NCBI GenBank assembly: GCA_963925495.1
Contig: CAWUST010000006.1
Coordinates: 78,247 to 142,246 of the forward strand
Source of the DNA: an uncultured Flavobacteriales bacterium
GTDB lineage: Bacteria; Bacteroidota; Bacteroidia; Flavobacteriales_G; Salibacteraceae
DNA: 64,000 nt
Reading direction: 5' to 3'
Shown here piece by piece: positions 14,837-25,767 of the stretch; position 1 is the stretch's first letter, and each line of letters begins with the position of its first letter. The translations under genes were made by a program, and so were the position numbers. Under the pieces are notes generated by a model that saw nothing but the letters and a program-made list of their open reading frames with translations, did not search any database and was not told the DNA's origin.

Positions 14837-17149
14837 TTATAGTATTTGAAGTTTGGCAAATTTTAATAACAAACTTTTTGAGCCAACTTCTTCAAAATTC
14901 ACAGTTGCTTTTTTGTTGGGGGAGTTCCCTTCTAATTCTAGTACTGTTCCTTTTCCAAATCGTTGATGAATGACTTGGTCACCTTTTTTTAAGCCGGATA
15001 AATCAGTTCCTTCAAAAGTACTAGGAGTTGAAGATGAATTAACTACACGTTTTAAGTTTTGTGTTTTTTTAAAATTCAAAGTGCTACTTCTTTCATTCAA
15101 ACCCGTGTTTTTCGCTTCTTTTACAAAGTCGAAACTAGAATTGCTTTTTGATTTTTTTTCTTCAATTTGATCTATATATTGAACATCTAATTCTTGTAAA
15201 AAACGACTTGGTTCAGCATAAGTTAAGTTTCCCCATCGATACCTAGTAGTAGAAAATGAAAGAGTTGCCTTTATTTCTGCTCGAGTAAGAGCCACATAAA
15301 ACAGGCGTCGCTCCTCTTCTAATTCTGTTCTCGAATTTATTGAAAGTTGAGATGGGAATAAATTCTCTTCCATACCTACAATATATACATACGGAAATTC
15401 TAATCCTTTTGACGCATGAATCGTCATCAAGGATACTACGTCATTTTCGTTTTTATTTTTATCGGTATCCGTAAGCAGGGCAATGTCTTGCATGTATACT
15501 CCAAGAGTTCTTTGTTCGTTTCCATCTGGTAAATCTATCCCCTCTTCTATAGTGTCCTGTTCAGCAAACTCCTTTATTCCGCTAAGCAGCTCCTGAATGT
15601 TATCGTACCTAGTTACTCCTTCAATACTCTTGTCAATATAAAGCTCCTTTAAAACACCTGAAGAACTAGAAATTTTACTCGCTATATCGTAGGCATCTCC
15701 TTTTTCAATAATATCATGATAAGTATCAATAAGTTTGCTAAAAGAATTTAGTTTACCAATGACAGAAGGGGATAGATGTACGCCAAATTTTAATGGGTTT
15801 TTTACTACTTCTAAAACCGATTTTTCATGCTGACTTGCGGCTAATAATATTTTATCTAAAGTAGTTTTACCAATTCCTCGTTTTGGATAATTTATTATTC
15901 TTTTTAGTGCTTCTTCATCTTTGGGGTTAATTGCCAATCTAAAATAGGCAAGTAAATCTTTAATTTCTTTTCGATGGTAAAAAGAAAGGCCACCATAAAT
16001 TCTGTAGGGGATGTCTTTTTTACGAAGTGCCTCTTCAATAGACCTGGATTGAGAGTTTGTTCGATATAGAATTGCAAAATCGGAGTTTGCACGTTGTTCA
16101 TTTCCTCGTCTAAAAAAGATGTCGTTTGCTACTTCGTAACCTTCTTCGTTATCTGATAGCGTTTTAATTATTTTAATTTTTTCGCCTTCTGTATTTTCTG
16201 TCCAAACATCTTTTTTAATCTGCTCCGTGTTTTTAGCAATTAATCCGTTTGCTGCTTTTACAATATTTTGCGTTGAACGATAGTTTTGCTCTAATTTAAA
16301 AACTTTTGCGTCGGAATATTCCTTTTGAAAATTCAAAATGTTTTGAATGTTCGCGCCACGAAACGAATAAATACTTTGGGCATCGTCACCAACCACACAG
16401 ATATTTTCAAATCTAGCTGCTAATTTCTTTAGAATTAAGTACTGCGAAAAGTTAGTATCTTGGTACTCATCAACCAATATGTATCTAAACTTATCTTGGT
16501 ATTTTAAAAGGACACTTGCATGGTCTCTGAAAAGAATGTTTGTTTTGTATAACAAATCATCAAAGTCCATTGCTCCAGATTGAAAACAGCGCTTTTCGTA
16601 AGACTGAAATATTCTGCCCAATTCTGGTTTTCTACTCTGTGAATCCTCCGTTTGAATAACAGAATTATTAACGTAATTATTGGCTGATATCAAATTGTTT
16701 TTTGCCGCTGAAATCCTGCTTAATACTAGATTAGGTTTATATACTTTGTCGTCTAATTTAAACTCTTTAATAATTCGCTTTATCAAACTCTTAGAGTCGT
16801 CGGAATCATAAATGGTAAAATTACTTGGGTAGCCTAATAGCGTAGCTTCTGACCGTAGAATTCTTGCAAATACTGAATGAAATGTTCCCATCCAGATGTT
16901 TCTAGACTCTGAAGGACCTACAATCTTGGAAATCCTTTTCTTCATTTCTTTGGCTGCCTTATTTGTAAATGTCAGCGATATTATAGAAAAGGAGTCAACT
17001 CCTGTCAGAATCATATGAGCAATTCGGTAAGTAAGCACTCGGGTTTTTCCTGAGCCAGCTCCAGCGATAACCATTACGGGGCCTTTTGTCTGCTCTACAG
17101 CCTTTCGCTGTTCGGGGTTTAATTCATCTAGATAGGTGGTATTGCTCAT
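14837..17149 (-). CDS. UvrD/PcrA/Rep-family ATP-dependent DNA helicase
   Basis: Walker A AGAGSGKT, motif II DEYQDT, TIHASKGLEF, C-terminal Tudor-like GDQVIHQRFGKG. The track start at 17158 is TTG. ATG at 17149 (MSNTTYLDELNPEQ) is preferred. Confidence 0.9.
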   Translation of the reverse strand: MSNTTYLDELNPEQRKAVEQTKGPVMVIAGAGSGKTRVLTYRIAHMILTGVDSFSIISLTFTNKAAKEMKKRISKIVGPSESRNIWMGTFHSVFARILRSEATLLGYPSNFTIYDSDDSKSLIKRIIKEFKLDDKVYKPNLVLSRISAAKNNLISANNYVNNSVIQTEDSQSRKPELGRIFQSYEKRCFQSGAMDFDDLLYKTNILFRDHASVLLKYQDKFRYILVDEYQDTNFSQYLILKKLAARFENICVVGDDAQSIYSFRGANIQNILNFQKEYSDAKVFKLEQNYRSTQNIVKAANGLIAKNTEQIKKDVWTENTEGEKIKIIKTLSDNEEGYEVANDIFFRRGNEQRANSDFAILYRTNSQSRSIEEALRKKDIPYRIYGGLSFYHRKEIKDLLAYFRLAINPKDEEALKRIINYPKRGIGKTTLDKILLAASQHEKSVLEVVKNPLKFGVHLSPSVIGKLNSFSKLIDTYHDIIEKGDAYDIASKISSSSGVLKELYIDKSIEGVTRYDNIQELLSGIKEFAEQDTIEEGIDLPDGNEQRTLGVYMQDIALLTDTDKNKNENDVVSLMTIHASKGLEFPYVYIVGMEENLFPSQLSINSRTELEEERRLFYVALTRAEIKATLSFSTTRYRWGNLTYAEPSRFLQELDVQYIDQIEEKKSKSNSSFDFVKEAKNTGLNERSSTLNFKKTQNLKRVVNSSSTPSTFEGTDLSGLKKGDQVIHQRFGKGTVLELEGNSPNKKATVNFEEVGSKSLLLKFAKLQIL

Positions 17150-17312
17150 AAAGTGCAAAGTAAAACCAACAAAGTAGAGTAAGTAAGTATGCCGTTAATA
17201 ATTTATAAAGAATAAATGTCTTTAGATGATTTTGCATAAATTTTTTTATTACGAATAGTTTGTTTACTTTTACATCGTAAATATTTACAGTAAATAAGTT
17301 AAAATTTGTATT

Positions 17313-17528
17313 ATGAGTGAAGAAATAAACGAAAACGAATTAGAGAATGTAAGTGGTGGTGCTGGAATGGGTATTCACCCTTCTTCAGGTGATGATGGTT
17401 CTCAACCTTTAATGGAAGGTGATGAAAACAGTAGCGAATTAAACCGACCTGACCATGGCCAGGACCAGGACGATCACCATGACCATGACGCAGATCAGCA
17501 GCATGGACTCCATGATCACGGTATATAG
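17313..17528 (+). CDS. Double-glycine-leader precursor peptide: 16-aa leader and 55-aa Cys-free His/Asp-rich core
   Basis: MSEEINENELENVSGG|AGMG... The leader has V(-4), L(-7), E(-8), I(-12), which fits GG-leader consensus positions. Same strand as a C39-peptidase ABC exporter and immediately upstream of it. Followed by its own terminator. Confidence 0.7.
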   Translation: MSEEINENELENVSGGAGMGIHPSSGDDGSQPLMEGDENSSELNRPDHGQDQDDHHDHDADQQHGLHDHGI

Positions 17529-17554
17529 ACATACAATCGTGTAATAGGTTATTT

Positions 17555-17586
17555 AAAAGGTTCCTTTTTGGAGCCTTTTTTTTTTG
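17555..17586 (+). terminator. Rho-independent terminator/attenuator after the precursor gene
   Basis: AAAAGGTTCC-ttttt-GGAGCCTTTT stem (one G-U wobble) followed by an 11-T run. Confidence 0.6.
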
Positions 17587-17742
17587 CTCTGATTTTTTAT
17601 TAATCAGTTTGAGTTGAAGTATTGATTTCTTGCAGTTTGTCGAAATTAAAATTACAGAATCTTTTTTTGTTGATTAGGCGGTTGTATTTGATAATATTAA
17701 AACTCTTAAAGAAAAAAAATTCTGCTAAGCCTTTTTTATTTT

Positions 17743-17750
17743 TATGTTTG
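17743..17750 (+). promoter_or_regulatory. Candidate Bacteroidota -7 box (TATGTTTG) for the transporter genes
   Basis: Exact match to the TAnnTTTG consensus, 50 nt upstream of the TolC-like ATG. No clear -33 TTG. Confidence 0.3.
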
Positions 17751-17758
17751 AAACAAAT

Positions 17759-17792
17759 GAGAATCAAATTCATAAATTAAAATTTGATTCTC
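17759..17792 (+). promoter_or_regulatory. Perfect 12-bp inverted repeat (operator or 5' RNA hairpin) abutting the TolC-like start codon
   Basis: GAGAATCAAATT-cataaattaa-AATTTGATTCTC. The right arm ends 7 nt before ATG 17800. Confidence 0.4.
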
Positions 17793-17799
17793 TATCTGT

Positions 17800-19410
17800 A
17801 TGAAGAAATGTTTTAATCTTTTTCTGCAATTTAGAATTGCATTTAGTGCTTTCTTGTTGATTTCTTCAATTATGAATCAATCGGCAAGTGCTCAAAACAT
17901 AGCTAACCTGGAAGTTGTTCTAAAAACAACTTTTGAGAAAAACCCCAACGTTCGTATTAGTTCCTTGAGTATAGACTTTCAGCAGGGCAGGATATTGCAG
18001 GCACAAGGACAATTCAATCCTAGTTTGAATTTTGGGATTAACAAAAGCTTTAATTTATCACCAACTACCAAAGCTCAGCGTGAAGGGTTACTTGGGTTTA
18101 GTCAAAATGAGTCGTTTAAAAGTGATCTTTTGGATTATGAATTATCTCTAACTAAAAGATTTCAGACTGGGACTCTAATAAAATCAAGTCTAGAGTTTAC
18201 CAATTTTGGGCGTAATGCTTTATATGATGACTTGTCAACAGCTGGTTTAGGTGAATTTATGACAAATAGAGGAAGATTGTTTTTTGATGTGACTCAACCT
18301 TTGCTGCAAGGAAGAGGAAAGAAATTCTATTCAGCTACTTTAGATGTAGAAAAACTCAGACTGAATCAAGCTCAATTGAACTATGCATTCGATGTAAGTA
18401 GCCAAACGTATTTGGTAATTCTGAATTACCTTAGCGTTGTTTCCGCTAGAAGAGAATTAGAAATTCAAATATCTATTGAAACAAATTATGCTGAATTTGA
18501 GGAACAACTGAGAATGTTGTCTGAAAAAGATGTAATACCAAAAGCTGAATTGACATTTATTAATGCGAATCTAGCTCGACAACATGTAACAGTTCTGAGC
18601 TCCAGATCATCTTATTTATCAGCTAAAAATCGGCTTTTAGAATCGATGGGCCTTCCAAGTTCTGATATTTCGAAATACGACTTTGAATCCATGCAATATG
18701 GCTTGGATTCTTTGCAGGAAGAAATTGAAGATGGGTATTTGGCTCATTGGTTGGAAAAGGCTTCGACTACTCGGAGAGATTATCTTGCCGCTCAGAAAAA
18801 CGTATCCATTAAAAAAAGAGAAATTGAGTATGCGGAAAATAAAAATCAGGCAAGATTAGATTTTACTGCAGGTGTTGGATATAATGGAATTTATGAGTCT
18901 AATTCTTTTGAGCAATACGTTTCGCCATTCTATTCAAATATTCCTGGTTTGAGTTACAGGGCAGGCTTGGTTTTTCAATGGTCAATGGGGATGATGTCAA
19001 CTAAAGGAGCATACGCCTCAGCATTGGCGGAAAAGCAAACATCTGAACAAACAGTTAAAAGTATAGAGCTGAACATTCAGCAACAGTTATCTTCTCAGTA
19101 TAACAATATTATTTACTATAACGAAGCTGTAAAACAAGGACAGCTTTCTGTGGATTTTAACTTAAAGGCACGTACAAATGAATATCTGAAATTGCAATTA
19201 GGGACTTCAGCTGTAGTGAACCTAGTTCAGGTGCAAAATAATTATGCAATCTCTCAAACATCACTGAATCGGTTGCAGTTTGCTTTAAACTCGTCAGTTA
19301 TCAGATTTAGATTTGAGTCAGGTAATTTGATAGAAATCTCGGAGTTAAACGAAGTAGTTGTAGATGTTGACGAATTATTCTCGTTACCTAAAATAAAAGT
19401 ATCAGAATGA
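17800..19410 (+). CDS. TolC-family outer-membrane efflux protein
   Basis: Signal peptide ending SASA|Q. 536 aa with two repeated halves of long helical, coiled-coil-rich sequence typical of the OEP family. Heads the exporter operon. Confidence 0.8.
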   Translation: MKKCFNLFLQFRIAFSAFLLISSIMNQSASAQNIANLEVVLKTTFEKNPNVRISSLSIDFQQGRILQAQGQFNPSLNFGINKSFNLSPTTKAQREGLLGFSQNESFKSDLLDYELSLTKRFQTGTLIKSSLEFTNFGRNALYDDLSTAGLGEFMTNRGRLFFDVTQPLLQGRGKKFYSATLDVEKLRLNQAQLNYAFDVSSQTYLVILNYLSVVSARRELEIQISIETNYAEFEEQLRMLSEKDVIPKAELTFINANLARQHVTVLSSRSSYLSAKNRLLESMGLPSSDISKYDFESMQYGLDSLQEEIEDGYLAHWLEKASTTRRDYLAAQKNVSIKKREIEYAENKNQARLDFTAGVGYNGIYESNSFEQYVSPFYSNIPGLSYRAGLVFQWSMGMMSTKGAYASALAEKQTSEQTVKSIELNIQQQLSSQYNNIIYYNEAVKQGQLSVDFNLKARTNEYLKLQLGTSAVVNLVQVQNNYAISQTSLNRLQFALNSSVIRFRFESGNLIEISELNEVVVDVDELFSLPKIKVSE

Positions 19411-20645
19411 AAGATAACTTATTTCGAAAAGATGCAATTGACAAATTGCAATCGCCTGACAGGCTGAATGAAATGGTTCGAATAATTTCACCAAACAATT
19501 GGATTGCTGTACTGTCTATTGCAGTATTGTTTGTTTTTATTGTAATCTGGAGTGTGCTAGGTCGGCTACCAATTAATGTTCAAGGAAATGGAATCCTTCT
19601 CAAATCGGGTGGGGTTATGGAGGTTCCTGCAATAGCAAACGGTCAGGTTTCAGAACTAATAATTAAGCCAGGAATGATAGTTCAAAAAGGGGAGATATTG
19701 GCAAAAGTTGCTCAACCAGAGCTGCAGCTAAAAATTGAACACATGGAACAGCAGTTGTTTCATTTAAAAAGTAAATACAAGACAATAAAAGGATTTGATG
19801 AACGTGATCTTGAATTAAAAAAAGAGCTGTTAAAAAAGAATGCGGAAAATAAAATGAAACGAATAGAGAAAAATATTGAACGTATTTCGTTTGTTGAAAC
19901 GCAAATTAAAGCAAGAGAAGAACTGTTGGATAAGGGTTTGATTACAACAGAAACTTTGAATCAAACTAAAATAATGAAGTTTGAGTTGGAACAACAAAAT
20001 TTGGTCCTTGCAAATGAATTGGAGGAGTTGCAACTGTCAATTTTTGAAATGTCTAAAGAAATTGAAATTGAACTAAATAATTTGGACGGACAAATAATTG
20101 CTTTAGAAGGAGAATTAGGTGAATTGCAAGCTCGTTATCAACTTAATTCTGAAATCAAGAGTCCTTATACTGGAAAGGTAGTTGAACTAATGGTTAATGC
20201 AGGAAGTATTGTTTCTCCGGGAAGCTTTCTTTTAAGTATGGAGCGAGATGATCTTAATGAGGAAATAGAAGCTATCGTTTACGTAAGCCCTCGTGAAGGA
20301 AAGAAAGTAAAAGTTGGCATGGATGTTAATATATCTCCCTCAACTGTTGAAGTTGAAAAGTTTGGCTATATCAAAGGAAAGGTTATTCAGGTTTCTGATT
20401 ATCCTGCCACATTTGAAGGAATGTTGAATACACTTCAGAATAAACAATTGGTAGAATCCTTCTTTAATGGAATGCCTCCTATTGCAGTTCGTGTAGGTTT
20501 AAAAACCAGTAGTAATATTTCTGGCTATGAATGGACATCGGGAGAAGGTCCAGATGTAGAAATTAAGTCTGGAACATTGTGTAATTCAAAAATAGTTGTT
20601 CAGAATAAGCGTCCTATAAGTCTAGTCTTACCTGTTGTTGATTAG
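19407..20645 (+). CDS. HlyD-family periplasmic adaptor (NHLM-bacteriocin-system secretion protein type)
   Basis: N-terminal LFRKDAIDKLQSPDRL plus one TM helix, lipoyl-like hairpin, long coiled coil, C-terminal beta-barrel. ATGA overlap with the TolC-like gene. Confidence 0.85.
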   Translation: MKDNLFRKDAIDKLQSPDRLNEMVRIISPNNWIAVLSIAVLFVFIVIWSVLGRLPINVQGNGILLKSGGVMEVPAIANGQVSELIIKPGMIVQKGEILAKVAQPELQLKIEHMEQQLFHLKSKYKTIKGFDERDLELKKELLKKNAENKMKRIEKNIERISFVETQIKAREELLDKGLITTETLNQTKIMKFELEQQNLVLANELEELQLSIFEMSKEIEIELNNLDGQIIALEGELGELQARYQLNSEIKSPYTGKVVELMVNAGSIVSPGSFLLSMERDDLNEEIEAIVYVSPREGKKVKVGMDVNISPSTVEVEKFGYIKGKVIQVSDYPATFEGMLNTLQNKQLVESFFNGMPPIAVRVGLKTSSNISGYEWTSGEGPDVEIKSGTLCNSKIVVQNKRPISLVLPVVD

Positions 20646-20654
20646 CATATTGCC

Positions 20655-22859
20655 ATGACGAATAAGCCATCAAAAGAAGAAAAGTTAATTTGGAATTCAT
20701 CCAAACCTAGGACGAAGACTGCTTCCGTTATACAACTTGAAGCCGTTGAGTGCGGAGCAGCAAGTCTGAAAATGGTGCTAGCTTACTTTGGTAGGTTCCA
20801 AACACTGGAAAAGTTAAGAGAAGATGCAGGAGTAAATCGTGATGGAAGTAAGGCAATCAATATTTTAAAAGCTGCCAGAAAACATGGAATGGAATGCAAG
20901 GGACTTAAAGTTGATGACTTAAGTGATCTCCTCGATATGAATTTTCCATTAATAATTCACTGGAATTTCAATCACTTTGTGGTTTTAGAAGGAATAAAAA
21001 ATGGTCGGTTTCACCTTAATGACCCTGCTATCGGTCACAGATCATTATCTTTTGATGAATTCAATGGGGCTTTTACCGGGATTGCATTAGAGTTTAAAAA
21101 AGGCCCTGACTTTGAGAAATCAGGAATTGAAGGGGGTTTAATTAGCGGATTAAAACTTCGCCTAAAAGGATACGAGAATACAATCACATACTTGTTCACG
21201 GTAGGATTGTTATTGGTTATTCCTGGATTAGTAATTCCGATTTTTTCGCGAGTATTTGTTGATGAAATATTGATAGGAAAAGCAGACGATTGGTTATGGC
21301 CTTTGGTAGCAGGAATGCTCTTGACTGCTGCTTTACGGGCAGTTTTACAACATTTAAAGCTTAGCGTATTATTAAAGGCTAAAAATAAACTCGAAGTAGT
21401 TACTTCGGCGCAATATTTCTGGCATTTACTTAAACTGCCTATCCAGTTCTTCCACCAACGAAACAAAGGTGAAATGGCTAGTAGAGTTGGGATAAATCGT
21501 AAAATAGCGGCTTTGATTACAGGTCAATTAGCAAAAAATTTATTGGATCTTGTTGTCATCGTTTTTTACTTTATTCTAATGCTTCAATATGATGTTCTGC
21601 TTTCAGTCATTACGATTGTTTTTGCAGCATTAAATATCGCAGCCTTAAAGTTGATAGGCCATGTAAGAATTGAAAAGTATTTCAGCTTGTCTGTTTCTTC
21701 TGGTAAATTATACGGAACAACTTTAGGAGGGATAAAGTCAATCGAAACCCTCAAAGCTATGGGTCGAGAAAATGATTTCTTCGTAAAGTGGAGCGGAAAT
21801 TTTACCAAAGTTTTTAATCAAACAATTGATCTTCGTTTATTCGAGATAAAATTTGGTTTGTTGCCAAGATCACTTAGTATTTTACAAGGCTCAATCATTC
21901 TGACCATTGGTGCTTGGAAAATAATGAATGGTGAAATAACAGTAGGTATGCTGGTTGCTTTTCAAAGCCTCGTGGTGAGCTTCTCTGGGCCTATTCAGAG
22001 TTTATTGAGACTCGGAAGTACCCTGCAGAAAATGGAAGGGGACATGAATCGTATTGATGATGTTATGCGCTCAGAGCCCGATCCTCAAGTTAAACGTTCG
22101 GTTCAGATTACAGAGGAGAATCTTGATGTTGTGTCCAAAAAATTAGAAGGGTATGTTGAGTTTAAAAATTTGACTTTTGGTTATAGTAAAGTCGCGCCAC
22201 CGTTAATTGAAAATTTCTCATTAAAAGTAAATCCCGGTGAACGTATAGCATTAGTAGGAGGTTCAGGAAGCGGAAAATCGACACTTGCCAAACTTATGAT
22301 TGGATTTTATGAGCCTTGGGAAGGTGAGATATTATTTGATGGCAAACCTCGAGCTCAAATTCCTAGACAGGTTATAAATAATTCTATGTCAATGGTTTCG
22401 CAGGATGTGTTTTTGTTCGAAGGCCCAGTTAGGGATGTCGTAAACTTATGGGATAGAAGTATAACTGATCAACAACTAATAAATGCATGTAAAGATGCCG
22501 CTATTCATGACATCATTAGTACAAAAACTGGTGGATATGATTTTATGGTTGGCGAGGGTGGTAAAAATTTTAGTGGAGGTCAACGTCAGCGCATAGAAAT
22601 CGCAAGGTCTTTAGTGAACAACCCATCGATACTTATTCTTGATGAAGCTACAAGCGCATTAGACCCTACTACAGAACTTGAAATCGACACTAACATAAAA
22701 AAGAGAAAGTGTACAGTAGTAGTTGTTGCTCATCGACTTAGTACTATTAGAGATAGCGATGAAATCATTGTACTGGACCAAGGGAGAATAGTGGAAAGAG
22801 GAACTCACGAAGAGTTACTTAAAATGCAAGGGAAATATTCACATTTAATTAAAACTTAG
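20655..22859 (+). CDS. Peptidase-C39-containing ABC transporter (PCAT; leader-cleaving exporter)
   Basis: C39 triad candidates: Cys33 (QLEAVECGAAS), His (NHFVVLEG), Asp (LNDPA). Six-TM exporter domain. Walker A GGSGSGKST, signature FSGGQRQR, Walker B ILILDEATSALD. Confidence 0.9.
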   Translation: MTNKPSKEEKLIWNSSKPRTKTASVIQLEAVECGAASLKMVLAYFGRFQTLEKLREDAGVNRDGSKAINILKAARKHGMECKGLKVDDLSDLLDMNFPLIIHWNFNHFVVLEGIKNGRFHLNDPAIGHRSLSFDEFNGAFTGIALEFKKGPDFEKSGIEGGLISGLKLRLKGYENTITYLFTVGLLLVIPGLVIPIFSRVFVDEILIGKADDWLWPLVAGMLLTAALRAVLQHLKLSVLLKAKNKLEVVTSAQYFWHLLKLPIQFFHQRNKGEMASRVGINRKIAALITGQLAKNLLDLVVIVFYFILMLQYDVLLSVITIVFAALNIAALKLIGHVRIEKYFSLSVSSGKLYGTTLGGIKSIETLKAMGRENDFFVKWSGNFTKVFNQTIDLRLFEIKFGLLPRSLSILQGSIILTIGAWKIMNGEITVGMLVAFQSLVVSFSGPIQSLLRLGSTLQKMEGDMNRIDDVMRSEPDPQVKRSVQITEENLDVVSKKLEGYVEFKNLTFGYSKVAPPLIENFSLKVNPGERIALVGGSGSGKSTLAKLMIGFYEPWEGEILFDGKPRAQIPRQVINNSMSMVSQDVFLFEGPVRDVVNLWDRSITDQQLINACKDAAIHDIISTKTGGYDFMVGEGGKNFSGGQRQRIEIARSLVNNPSILILDEATSALDPTTELEIDTNIKKRKCTVVVVAHRLSTIRDSDEIIVLDQGRIVERGTHEELLKMQGKYSHLIKT

Positions 22860-22863
22860 AAGT

Positions 22864-25767
22864 TTGGATAATCAATCCTTAATAAAAGAACTCAAGCGAA
22901 GAGGTCAAGAAAGAATTCAATCAGTGATTGACCCTTTTCTTTCTGTTGACCCTTCAAAAGTTCACTTTGTACTCCAAGGTTCTGTCAATCTTTCTACATC
23001 AAAAGTTGTTGAAGAAGACGCCTATGGTCGATTAGATAACTTCATACAAATTCCCGAAGGTGAGTTGATATTCGGCACTGCGATAGATTACGATAATAAC
23101 TTATCTTTTTTAGTGGATGTGGAGATTGAGTCTACTTTTATAGATATTGATATTCAATATATTAGAGAGCTTGCAAATTCAGTAGAATTTGGCCCAACGA
23201 TTATTACTCTTATCGAAACCTGGATTAATCGACTCTATGCAGGTGTTGCTGATGATACAAGCGTCAATATCCCTATTATTCATGATTTCTTAAGTTTTAA
23301 TACTTCCTATTGTGATCCTGAAAATTCAGTCGCTGGGAACAGGGAATTGACTTGGGTATTGTTTCATGAAATTGGAGAATGTAAATTTAATAGGCACCTA
23401 GAAGTAAATATAGATAATGTGATTTTCCCAGTTGGGACACGTTCATATTTGGTTTTTGAAGGTGGAGTGAAATTGACAACCCATCGAACCGCTGATATTA
23501 TTTCTAGAGATGAAATGTGGAATGGACTTTTAGAGTTAGGTCAAGTTGTCTTTAGAAGTGACGCACATGAAATTTTATTCAGAGAGGCTCAAGAAACAAG
23601 TAGACTAATTGAAAAGTATCAATTAGAATCCGACGATTTTTCCGAATCTTTAAAATCCTTTTCTCAAGTTTTTCAGAAAGATAAAGGACTACAAGTAGAT
23701 TTTGATTCTCATGATGACCTGTTTAACGCAGTTTCAATGGTCATGAAGTATGAAGAGATTAAAGTGTCTTTTCCAAAAGGGTTTTCTCAAAATGAAGATT
23801 TTTTATCTGAAATATGTCGCTATAACGGTATTCGTTATCGTGAAATTCTCTTGGAGCCAAATTGGTTTGAGAGAAATACAGAAGATGCATTTTTAGCCTT
23901 CATAAACAATGGGCAAGAGGATCCCCTTGCAGTTATTCCTCATAAAGGAAAATTGTCATTTGTTAATACCAAAACCCAAGAAATAGTAGAAGTAGACAAG
24001 GATAATGTGGGGTTGTTTAAACAAGAGGCCTATGTTTTTTATAGACCATTTCCTGCAGATCGACCAATTAAAATAAAGGACATTGTTGTGTTCACACTTG
24101 AAAAGAACAAAAAAGATTTAATCCGAGTCTTTGTCATGGGGTTTATTAGTAGCTTATTTATGCTATTGTTTCCAATCTTAACGGCTCAAATTTTTGATTT
24201 TGTTATTCCAAGCGCAGATAAAGGGCAATTGTTAAACATTGCCTTCGCATTAATTGCTATTTCCTTTGGAACGATTGGATTTGAGTTGGTGAAACAATTT
24301 GCTTTAATGCGCGCTGAGAACAGATTAGATTATAAGGCTCAATCTGCACTTTGGGATCGCTTGCTAAACCTTCCAAGTGATTTCTTTTCAAATTATAGCA
24401 CAGGAGACATGGCTTCAAGGTCCATGGGAATTAATCAAATGAAATCTATTATTTCGGGTGCAGCGATTACATCAGTCCTAGCTTTAGCTTTTTCAATTTT
24501 AAATTTAGGCCTTTTACTATACTATAGTGCCTCACTGGCAGGCTTAGCGATTGCATTTAGTCTAGTCCAAATTACGATTATAAGCTTATTTGCTCGACTT
24601 CAATTGAAGTTGCAGGCGAAGCTTATGAAAGAAGGTGGGAAATTGGAAGGTGTTGCTTTTCAAGTTCTAAATGGAATTTCACAATTTAGAGCGAGTGGTT
24701 CGGAGTCTAGAGCGTTCCTGTTCTGGTTTAAGGCTTTTATGAAAGCAAAGACAACGGCGATTGGACTGGCCAAGTTGCAAAATGCACAAGCAATACTTAA
24801 TTCCGTATTAGGTATTTTATCAAGCGTGTTTCTTTTTGTGATTGTTAAAACAACAACTAATGATTTAACAACTGGACAGTTTTTTGCTTTTCTTGCTGCT
24901 TACGGGGCATTTGTAGGTGCTATTATTGGATTAAGCTCTTCTCTTGTTCAAATCCTCAAACTTCCTGTTATTTACGATAGGCTAAGACCAATTTTAGAGA
25001 CGCTTCCGGAATGCGAAACATTGAAGGAAGCACCTACAAAATTCACAGGTTCTATCGAAATGAACAATATCAATTTTAGATATAAGGATGGTGCCCCATT
25101 GATTATAAAAGATTTAAGTATCTCAATAAAGAGCGGCGAGTATATTGCATTAGTAGGGCCATCTGGTTCAGGAAAATCTACACTTATACGGTTATTACTT
25201 GGATTTAATAAGTCTGAAGCAGGCTCTATTTATTTTGACAAGCAGGACATGGAAAATTACGATCCGAAAATGCTGCGTCGTCAAATGGGCGTAGTGCTTC
25301 AAGATGGTGATTTAATGTCTGGAGATATCTACACAAACATTGTTGGTTCATCTACTCAATTAACTAGAAATGACGCATGGGCAGCAGCGAGAGCAGCGGC
25401 ATTTGATAAAGACATTTTAAATATGCCAATGGGAATGCATACTATCGTTAATGAAGATGGTGGTACTCTTTCTGGTGGGCAAAAACAACGATTAATGATT
25501 GCGCGTGCTTTGGTGCATAATCCTAAGATATTAATTTTTGATGAAGCTACTAGTGCATTGGATAATGAAACACAGGCTATAGTTACTGCAAGTTTGGATA
25601 ATCTTAATGTAACAAGAATCGTTATTGCACACAGATTGTCTACAATTATTAATGCTGATAAAATTTACTATTTGGAAGGTGGTGAGTTAATTGAAAGTGG
25701 CTCTTTTGATGAATTAATGGAAATAAAGGGTCAATTCCATAAGCTAGCTGAACGTCAAATTGAGTAA
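22864..25767 (+). CDS. Second ABC exporter (TMD+NBD) with a ~415-aa non-peptidase N-terminal domain
   Basis: TTG start 4 nt after the PCAT stop, with no in-frame ATG for more than 200 codons. TM domain begins near aa 420. Walker A GPSGSGKST, signature LSGGQKQR, Walker B ILIFDEATSALD. Confidence 0.85.
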   Translation: MDNQSLIKELKRRGQERIQSVIDPFLSVDPSKVHFVLQGSVNLSTSKVVEEDAYGRLDNFIQIPEGELIFGTAIDYDNNLSFLVDVEIESTFIDIDIQYIRELANSVEFGPTIITLIETWINRLYAGVADDTSVNIPIIHDFLSFNTSYCDPENSVAGNRELTWVLFHEIGECKFNRHLEVNIDNVIFPVGTRSYLVFEGGVKLTTHRTADIISRDEMWNGLLELGQVVFRSDAHEILFREAQETSRLIEKYQLESDDFSESLKSFSQVFQKDKGLQVDFDSHDDLFNAVSMVMKYEEIKVSFPKGFSQNEDFLSEICRYNGIRYREILLEPNWFERNTEDAFLAFINNGQEDPLAVIPHKGKLSFVNTKTQEIVEVDKDNVGLFKQEAYVFYRPFPADRPIKIKDIVVFTLEKNKKDLIRVFVMGFISSLFMLLFPILTAQIFDFVIPSADKGQLLNIAFALIAISFGTIGFELVKQFALMRAENRLDYKAQSALWDRLLNLPSDFFSNYSTGDMASRSMGINQMKSIISGAAITSVLALAFSILNLGLLLYYSASLAGLAIAFSLVQITIISLFARLQLKLQAKLMKEGGKLEGVAFQVLNGISQFRASGSESRAFLFWFKAFMKAKTTAIGLAKLQNAQAILNSVLGILSSVFLFVIVKTTTNDLTTGQFFAFLAAYGAFVGAIIGLSSSLVQILKLPVIYDRLRPILETLPECETLKEAPTKFTGSIEMNNINFRYKDGAPLIIKDLSISIKSGEYIALVGPSGSGKSTLIRLLLGFNKSEAGSIYFDKQDMENYDPKMLRRQMGVVLQDGDLMSGDIYTNIVGSSTQLTRNDAWAAARAAAFDKDILNMPMGMHTIVNEDGGTLSGGQKQRLMIARALVHNPKILIFDEATSALDNETQAIVTASLDNLNVTRIVIAHRLSTIINADKIYYLEGGELIESGSFDELMEIKGQFHKLAERQIE

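What the first reader, a model, noticed from the sequence alone, without database searches (positions are those of the whole stretch)
17313..17528. Precursor core is Cys-free, aromatic-free, strongly acidic and His/Asp-rich: candidate secreted metal-binding peptide
Seen in sequence: the leader is MSEEINENELENVSGG (16 aa). Hydrophobics at -4, -7 and -12 and Glu at -8 match GG-leader consensus positions, and the ending ELENVSGG resembles the ELExVAGG ending of Nif11/NHLP-type leaders. The 55-aa core is AGMGIHPSSGDDGSQPLMEGDENSSELNRPDHGQDQDDHHDHDADQQHGLHDHGI. It has 11 Asp, 3 Glu, 8 His, 8 Gly, 1 Arg, 0 Lys, 0 Cys and 0 Phe/Trp/Tyr. In the last 25 residues (17451-17525), 15 are His or Asp, arranged as DHxxDxDDHHDHDxD...HxxHDH. 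Established knowledge: class II bacteriocins are cationic and amphipathic, and RiPP cores need Cys/Ser/Thr chemistry. Alternating His/Asp tracts are typical Zn/Ni/Cu/Co ligand arrays. Inference: the product could act in metal capture, metal buffering, mineral binding or signalling rather than pore formation. I know of no characterised PCAT substrate of this composition.
Basis: partly seen in the sequence, partly recalled or inferred. Interest (0 to 1): 0.88.

Follow-up and report, generated by a model that had tools for sequence, protein, structure and literature searches.

The report
Exported His/Asp-rich acidic peptide gene
A small, real gene in a marine flavobacterium encodes a cysteine-free, very acidic, histidine/aspartate-rich peptide that a dedicated pump most likely cleaves and exports; it may bind metals outside the cell, but relatives carry quite different cargo sequences, so that role is unproven.

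Summary
ORF 17313-17528 (+) encodes MSEEINENELENVSGG followed by a 55-residue core with 11 Asp, 8 His, 0 Cys and 0 aromatic residues.

It is a real gene. The frame is kept in relatives, indels are in multiples of three, 18 of 30 substitutions fall at third codon positions, and the His/Asp tract shows 5 synonymous and 0 nonsynonymous changes. The gene has its own terminator.

It lies next to a four-gene exporter: a TolC-like protein, HlyD (TIGR03794), a C39-peptidase ABC transporter (TIGR03796) with intact catalytic residues, and a second ABC subunit (TIGR03797).

The exact sequence is an orphan. Only five near-identical marine metagenome copies were found among billions of proteins.

Syntenic loci in related Salibacteraceae-like Flavobacteriales keep the leader almost unchanged, but their cores cannot be aligned between lineages. 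His-plus-acid tracts recur in several lineages (4-8 His). Others are Glu/Arg-rich with no His, or basic.

Metal binding is therefore a reasonable reading for this lineage but is not shown. No metal gene, regulator, riboswitch or modifying enzyme lies nearby. Signalling and antagonism remain live rivals.

Verdict: an unusual-cargo variant of a known export system, of moderate to high interest.

The parts
17256..17262 (+). Possible -7 promoter element (TAGTTTG) of the peptide gene. It is an imperfect match to the Bacteroidota TAnnTTTG box.
   Evidence: Read from the sequence. The aligned position in the L095 and L098 lineages carries an exact TATGTTTG. This is weak evidence and an inference only.
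17263..17302 (.). Imperfect 20+20 palindrome that contains the perfect 12-nt palindrome GTAAATATTTAC (17277-17288), about 30 nt upstream of the ATG. It is a candidate operator.
   Evidence: GTAAATATTTACAG is kept in L001 and in the more distant L102 while the neighbouring bases vary. On its own it is not statistically exceptional: 38 of 100 shuffles of this AT-rich DNA gave at least one match.
17313..17360 (+). Double-glycine leader MSEEINENELENVSGG (16 aa). The predicted cleavage site is after Gly16.
   Evidence: It scores 17.1 bits against TIGR01847, above the 15.7 cutoff. [quoted passage not shown] The leader is nearly invariant in all related lineages.
17361..17450 (+). N-terminal, variable half of the core (AGMGIHPSSGDDGSQPLMEGDENSSELNRP).
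   Evidence: In-frame indels of 6 and 3 nt and a replaced block occur among alleles whose flanks are 98-99% identical.
17451..17525 (+). C-terminal His/Asp tract DHGQDQDDHHDHDADQQHGLHDHGI. 15 of its 25 residues are His or Asp.
   Evidence: Between the window and L001, DHHDHDADQQHGL carries 5 synonymous and 0 nonsynonymous changes.
17526..17528 (+). Stop codon TAG.
17555..17589 (+). Intrinsic terminator of the peptide gene: a 10-bp stem followed by a run of 10 T.
   Evidence: The RNA fold is -15.6 kcal/mol with z = -3.0. L102 shows a compensatory U-A to C-G change in the stem (alignment). The analogous peptides in L008 and L009 also end in their own hairpin plus T-run.
17743..17750 (+). TATGTTTG, an exact TAnnTTTG Bacteroidota -7 box. 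It is the likely separate promoter of the exporter operon.
   Evidence: It is conserved upstream of the TolC-like gene in nine lineages. The consensus itself is from my own knowledge.
17759..17792 (+). 13-bp inverted repeat in the 5' leader of the exporter operon.
   Evidence: The fold has z = -2.85. It is conserved in L001 and L102 but absent from more distant lineages. Its function is unknown.
17800..19410 (+). TolC-like outer-membrane factor (536 aa).
   Evidence: PF02321 at E = 1.2e-17, and a weak TIGR01844 match.
19407..20645 (+). HlyD-type periplasmic adaptor, TIGR03794 (NHLP bacteriocin system secretion protein).
   Evidence: 340.8 bits against a cutoff of 156.2.
20655..22859 (+). Peptidase-containing ABC transporter (C39 domain, membrane domain and ATPase domain), TIGR03796.
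   Evidence: 997 bits against a cutoff of 853.3. Its C39 domain matches LahT150 (6MPZ) at E = 2.8e-41 without gaps, so Gln27, Cys33, His107 and Asp123 align with Gln21, Cys27, His101 and Asp117. The full length matches PCAT1 (4RY2) at E = 1.7e-98.
22864..25767 (+). Second ABC subunit without a peptidase domain, TIGR03797. It carries a 283-aa N-terminal extension of unknown fold.
   Evidence: 800.2 bits against a cutoff of 709.4, with the match starting at residue 284. The extension gave no Pfam or PDB hit. A single-sequence AF2 model was unusable at pLDDT 33.6.

Best explanation
The ORF is the monocistronic precursor gene of a linear, probably unmodified peptide. It has its own promoter and its own terminator.

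Step 1 (strongly supported): the peptide is translated with a 16-residue double-glycine leader.

Step 2 (inferred from homology): the leader docks as an amphipathic helix, through V-4, L-7 and I-12, into the C39 domain of the adjacent TIGR03796 transporter. That domain cuts after Gly16. The ABC1/ABC2, HlyD and TolC-like complex then moves the 55-residue product (about 5.95 kDa) across both membranes.

Step 3 (inferred from composition and selection): the product is an intrinsically disordered polyanion. Its selected part is the C-terminal His/Asp cluster. At seawater pH that cluster offers neutral imidazoles and carboxylates that bind divalent transition metals (Zn, Ni, Cu, Co). The peptide would then act outside the cell as a metal-binding agent, for capture, buffering or detoxification. 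A lineage-specific partner may recognise it, for example a receptor for the metal-loaded peptide.

It is one lineage-specific member of a family of exported peptides with fast-changing cores. The family sits at a fixed chromosomal site in marine Salibacteraceae-like Flavobacteriales. The metal-binding character belongs to this and several sister lineages, not to the whole family.

My confidence is about 0.85 for 'real gene, cleaved and exported' and about 0.4 for 'metal binding is the selected function'.
For: A real coding gene:
- The frame is kept in five metagenome copies.
- Indels are in multiples of three, and 18 of 30 substitutions fall at third codon positions.
- Core dN/dS is 0.26. The His/Asp tract shows 5 synonymous and 0 nonsynonymous changes.
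- The terminator shows a compensatory change in L102.

Export:
- The leader scores above the TIGR01847 cutoff, and its contact residues match those in the LahT150 co-crystal.
- The complete TolC-like, TIGR03794, TIGR03796 and TIGR03797 cassette is adjacent, and the catalytic Gln/Cys/His/Asp are intact.
- The same 'peptide then exporter' layout sits between pcrA and rpsL in at least six related lineages, with a nearly invariant leader.

Unmodified and disordered:
- No modifying enzyme lies in the 64 kb.
- AF2 predicts no secondary structure, with pTM 0.12.

Metal binding:
- 15 of the last 25 residues are His or Asp.
- His is enriched 5- to 10-fold over background in four further sub-lineages. 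His positions shift between them while the count is kept: P0030 has 6, P0029 has 7, P0031 has 8 and the L098 group has 4.
- The His-bearing C-terminal half is also the constrained half in the L098 paralogues, with 8 synonymous and 0 nonsynonymous changes.
- Tandem amplification to 2-3 copies, each with its own terminator, points to a product needed in quantity.
Against: - Three related lineages have Glu/Arg-rich cores with no His, and two have basic Pro/Gly/Arg-rich cores. His chelation is therefore not the common function.
- No metal-responsive riboswitch was found. There is no recognisable Fur- or Zur-family regulator gene, metal transporter or TonB-dependent receptor in the window or in the syntenic loci.
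- Zero nonsynonymous changes in the constrained halves suggests a constraint on the exact sequence. A composition-only chelator would need less than that, so a protein partner is implied.
- The mature N-terminus is not an ATCUN motif (read from the sequence).
- Unstructured His/Asp peptides usually bind Zn or Ni at only micromolar to nanomolar affinity. A diluted secreted chelator is costly for planktonic cells. Seawater Ca and Mg at millimolar levels would compete at the carboxylates (my own knowledge).
- I have no expression or proteomic data.
Confidence: 0.42

Rival explanations
1. It is a species- or strain-specific signalling or recognition peptide, similar to ComC-type pheromones. In this reading the exporter releases the peptide, a receptor that co-evolves with it and is encoded elsewhere senses it, and the His/Asp tract is simply the current receptor epitope in this lineage.
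For: The leader and exporter are conserved while the cores differ radically between lineages, yet each core is under purifying selection within its lineage. At least three core alleles exist in a population whose flanking DNA is 98-99% identical, and core dS is about 0.48 against 0.02-0.07 for neighbouring genes. That resembles pherotype polymorphism. The locus is inherited vertically in the core genome rather than on an island.
Against: No histidine kinase or other receptor is linked to the locus in any lineage. The only regulator nearby is a sigma-54 response regulator 9 kb away, beside an unrelated ABC-2 transporter. Cores of 40-60 residues and tandem gene amplification are unusual for pheromones. 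To my knowledge, GG-peptide signalling has not been established in Bacteroidota. Recurrent His enrichment in separate lineages is not expected for arbitrary epitopes.
Confidence: 0.2
2. It is an antagonistic peptide, similar to a microcin or bacteroidetocin, that targets competitors. It might act by starving them of metal, or by entering through a metal-uptake receptor.
For: A GG leader plus a PCAT/TolC export system is the standard architecture of class II microcins and bacteroidetocins (PMC12219008). Hypervariable cores and gene duplication fit an arms race. NCBI names one family member 'bacteriocin' (P0022), but only because of the leader model.
Against: No immunity-like ORF lies between the peptide gene and the exporter in any lineage. 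The core is extremely hydrophilic (GRAVY -1.6), has no Cys and no amphipathic or hydrophobic segment, and is predicted to be disordered. The locus is syntenic and apparently universal among the sampled relatives, not patchy like toxin islands.
Confidence: 0.15
3. It is a secreted polyelectrolyte whose function depends on bulk charge rather than on His. Possible roles are binding Ca or Mg, coating mineral or particle surfaces, or conditioning the cell surface or matrix. The His content would be incidental.
For: What all 17 cores share is high charge, Gly richness, no Cys and few aromatic residues. 15 of the 17 are net acidic, from -6 to -14. Gene amplification suggests the product is used in bulk.
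Against: Two lineages are net basic. Sequence-level purifying selection, with 0 nonsynonymous against 5-8 synonymous changes in the C-terminal halves, is stronger than a bulk-charge role needs.
Confidence: 0.1
4. It is the precursor of a modified peptide (RiPP) whose tailoring enzymes are encoded elsewhere in the genome. Candidate modifications include Asp or His hydroxylation and cross-linking.
For: The TIGR03794/6/7 cassette was defined through its association with modified NHLP and Nif11 precursors. Such precursors can lie far from their enzymes (PMC2887384).
Against: The leader is only 16 residues long and shows no NHLP or Nif11 homology, so it has no recognisable docking region for an enzyme. 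No tailoring enzyme lies in the 64 kb or in any syntenic locus. The cores differ too much between lineages to share one modification chemistry.
Confidence: 0.08
5. It is not a functional gene but a chance ORF in an intergenic region.
For: It is short and of low complexity. An antisense ORF of similar length exists.
Against: The frame, start codon, leader and terminator are conserved across lineages. Substitutions are biased to third codon positions. The ORF hits TIGR01847. It always sits next to its cognate exporter.
Confidence: 0.03

Closest known systems
Double-glycine leader peptides exported by peptidase-containing ABC transporters (PCAT/AMS systems such as LahT, PCAT1-CtA, ComA-ComC and CvaB-MccV)
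   Same: It has a 16-residue leader that ends in GG, with hydrophobic residues at -4, -7 and -12 and Glu at -8. The adjacent C39-ABC transporter has an intact Gln/Cys/His/Asp set. A HlyD adaptor and a TolC-like channel are present, as in Gram-negative type I systems.
   Different: The cargo is a Cys-free, aromatic-free, disordered polyanion rich in His and Asp. Known cargos are pore-forming or receptor-targeting bacteriocins, lanthipeptides or short pheromones. The exporter has two different ABC subunits. There is no immunity gene and no sensor gene.
NHLP/Nif11 precursor families with the TIGR03794/03796/03797 transport cassette (Haft et al. 2010, PMC2887384), including prochlorosins
   Same: It uses the same three-gene export cassette. 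The leader ending is similar (ELxxV[AS]GG). As with prochlorosins, the leader is conserved and the core is hypervariable (the prochlorosin comparison is from my own knowledge).
   Different: The leader has 16 residues rather than about 60-90, and it shows no homology to TIGR03793 or TIGR03798. There are no Cys, Ser or Thr targets arranged for modification and no LanM or cyclodehydratase. There are one to three gene copies at one fixed locus, not large dispersed paralogous families.
Bacteroidetocins and class II microcins
   Same: They occur in the same phylum or in other Gram-negative bacteria. They have GG signals of about 15 residues and a PCAT encoded nearby (PMC12219008).
   Different: Those peptides are toxins with hydrophobic or disulfide-stabilised cores, and usually have immunity functions. 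This core is GRAVY -1.6 with no Cys, and no immunity ORF is present.
Ribosomal peptide metallophores: methanobactins and bufferins (PMC11626156)
   Same: Both are ribosomally made peptides proposed or shown to bind metal outside the cytoplasm.
   Different: Those peptides bind Cu through Cys-derived heterocycles made by MbnBC or MNIO enzymes, and bufferins use Sec signal peptides (partly my own knowledge). This peptide has no Cys and no MNIO, and would rely on unmodified His and Asp side chains after PCAT export.
His/Asp-rich disordered metal-binding segments of proteins (ZnuA loop, SlyD C-terminal tail, Hpn, ZIP transporter loops) and the secreted fungal zincophore Pra1
   Same: The HDHD-type composition is similar (my own knowledge). 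Pra1 offers a precedent for a secreted protein that scavenges zinc.
   Different: No sequence homology was found. The bacterial examples are parts of cytoplasmic or periplasmic proteins, not free exported peptides. Metal binding has not been measured for this peptide.

Membership tests
GG-leader peptide / PCAT substrate (TIGR01847-type signal) | An N-terminal leader of about 15-30 residues that ends in GG, GA or GS and matches the family model. | tested here: met
   17.1 bits against the 15.7 cutoff. The leader sequence is MSEEINENELENVSGG.
GG-leader peptide / PCAT substrate (TIGR01847-type signal) | Hydrophobic residues at -4, -7 and -12 that dock into the C39 groove. | tested here: met
   [quoted passage not shown] These positions stay hydrophobic in all related lineages.
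GG-leader peptide / PCAT substrate (TIGR01847-type signal) | A cognate ABC transporter with a catalytically competent C39 domain encoded nearby. | tested here: met
   TIGR03796 scores 997 bits. Gln27, Cys33, His107 and Asp123 align with the LahT catalytic residues.
GG-leader peptide / PCAT substrate (TIGR01847-type signal) | Cleavage after GG and export of the core. | not testable with these tools
   This needs an in vitro C39 assay or exoproteomics.
NHLP (TIGR03793) / Nif11-type (TIGR03798) precursors | A long leader homologous to the nitrile hydratase alpha subunit or to Nif11. | tested here: not met
   An NCBIfam scan of the 71-aa protein returned only TIGR01847. The leader has 16 residues.
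NHLP (TIGR03793) / Nif11-type (TIGR03798) precursors | Adjacency to the TIGR03794/03796/03797 export cassette. | tested here: met
   All three models score above their cutoffs.
Class II microcin / bacteroidetocin | A hydrophobic, amphipathic or disulfide-containing toxic core. | tested here: not met
   GRAVY is -1.6 with 0 Cys and 0 aromatic residues. No secondary structure is predicted.
Class II microcin / bacteroidetocin | A linked immunity gene. | tested here: not met
   No conserved ORF of 30 aa or more lies between the peptide gene and the exporter in eight lineages.
Class II microcin / bacteroidetocin | Antibacterial activity. | not testable with these tools
   This needs a bioassay.
RiPP metallophores (methanobactin, bufferin) | Cys residues converted by MbnBC or MNIO (DUF692) enzymes encoded in the cluster. 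| tested here: not met
   The core has no Cys. No such enzyme lies in the window.
RiPP metallophores (methanobactin, bufferin) | Measured metal binding. | not testable with these tools
   This needs ITC or native mass spectrometry.
ComC-type peptide pheromone | A linked two-component sensor (histidine kinase and response regulator). | tested here: not met
   None is adjacent in the window or in the syntenic loci. A receptor elsewhere in the genome cannot be excluded.
ComC-type peptide pheromone | Allelic core polymorphism with a conserved leader. | tested here: met
   At least three core alleles exist among contigs with 98-99% identical flanks. Core dS is 0.48 against 0.02-0.07 in neighbouring genes.

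The most novel reading that the evidence does not exclude
These peptides are unmodified, ribosomally made metallophores, similar in concept to zincophores. Marine Salibacteraceae-like Flavobacteriales would secrete them through a PCAT type I system, and lineage-specific receptors would privatise them. That privatisation would explain why the cores diversify as siderophore types do. If so, they would be a genetically traceable source of the so far unidentified organic ligands that complex Zn, Ni, Co and Cu in seawater.
Probability: 0.2. Interest if true: 0.85.

Novelty: new variant of a known kind. Interest (0 to 1): 0.6.

Why it matters
If the peptide binds metal, it would be the first unmodified ribosomal peptide exported by a peptidase-ABC transporter for a metal-related role. 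It would also give marine chemists a gene-encoded candidate for the unidentified trace-metal ligands of seawater.

The comparative result matters even without that. A whole family of marine Flavobacteriales keeps a well-conserved four-part exporter and an almost invariant leader at one chromosomal site. The exported cargo, meanwhile, is rewritten in each lineage (His/Asp-rich, Glu/Arg-rich or basic) and is sometimes amplified in tandem.

The family is tractable and uncharacterised. It could be used to ask what hydrophilic, non-bacteriocin GG peptides do in Gram-negative bacteria. Similar unexplained hydrophilic cargos sit next to this cassette in many phyla.

Tried and rejected
- Direct homology. 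A phmmer-type search of 5.8 billion proteins found only four near-identical proteins. An exhaustive HMM search of 1.84 billion representatives found only the peptide's own cluster plus one spurious repeat protein. The core gave no PDB hit, and the peptide gave no Pfam hit.
- Other genomes. I scanned 80 GTDB loci carrying TIGR03796-like transporters for small ORFs with His/Asp-rich tails and found none. The nearest GTDB transporter was only 67% identical, and its contig was cut before the peptide position.
- P0004, L004 and L005. P0004 looked like a C-terminally different allele. Its two 2410-nt Logan contigs (L004, L005) are circular permutations of each other. They join the ORF near 17477 back to pcrA at 15130 through 30 nt that resemble 21269-21298. 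I treated this as an assembly artefact and excluded it.
- Antisense ORF 17311-17532. I rejected it on the substitution pattern and because stop-free antisense frames are general for this codon content.
- Metal-sensing RNA. An Rfam scan of 16900-18100 at E up to 10 gave only noise.
- Upstream palindrome as a Fur- or Zur-type box. It occurs once in the window and is not statistically exceptional. I had no reference motif for this clade, so the question stays open.
- Immunity gene. The only ORF in the gap (17600-17773, minus strand, 57 aa) is not conserved even in L001.
- Fold of the ABC2 N-terminal extension. The single-sequence AF2 model had pLDDT 33.6 and was unusable, so I ran no fold search.
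- Literature. Searches for histidine-rich GG peptides, ribosomal metallophores with leader peptides, and the TIGR cassette in Bacteroidota found no description of this family.
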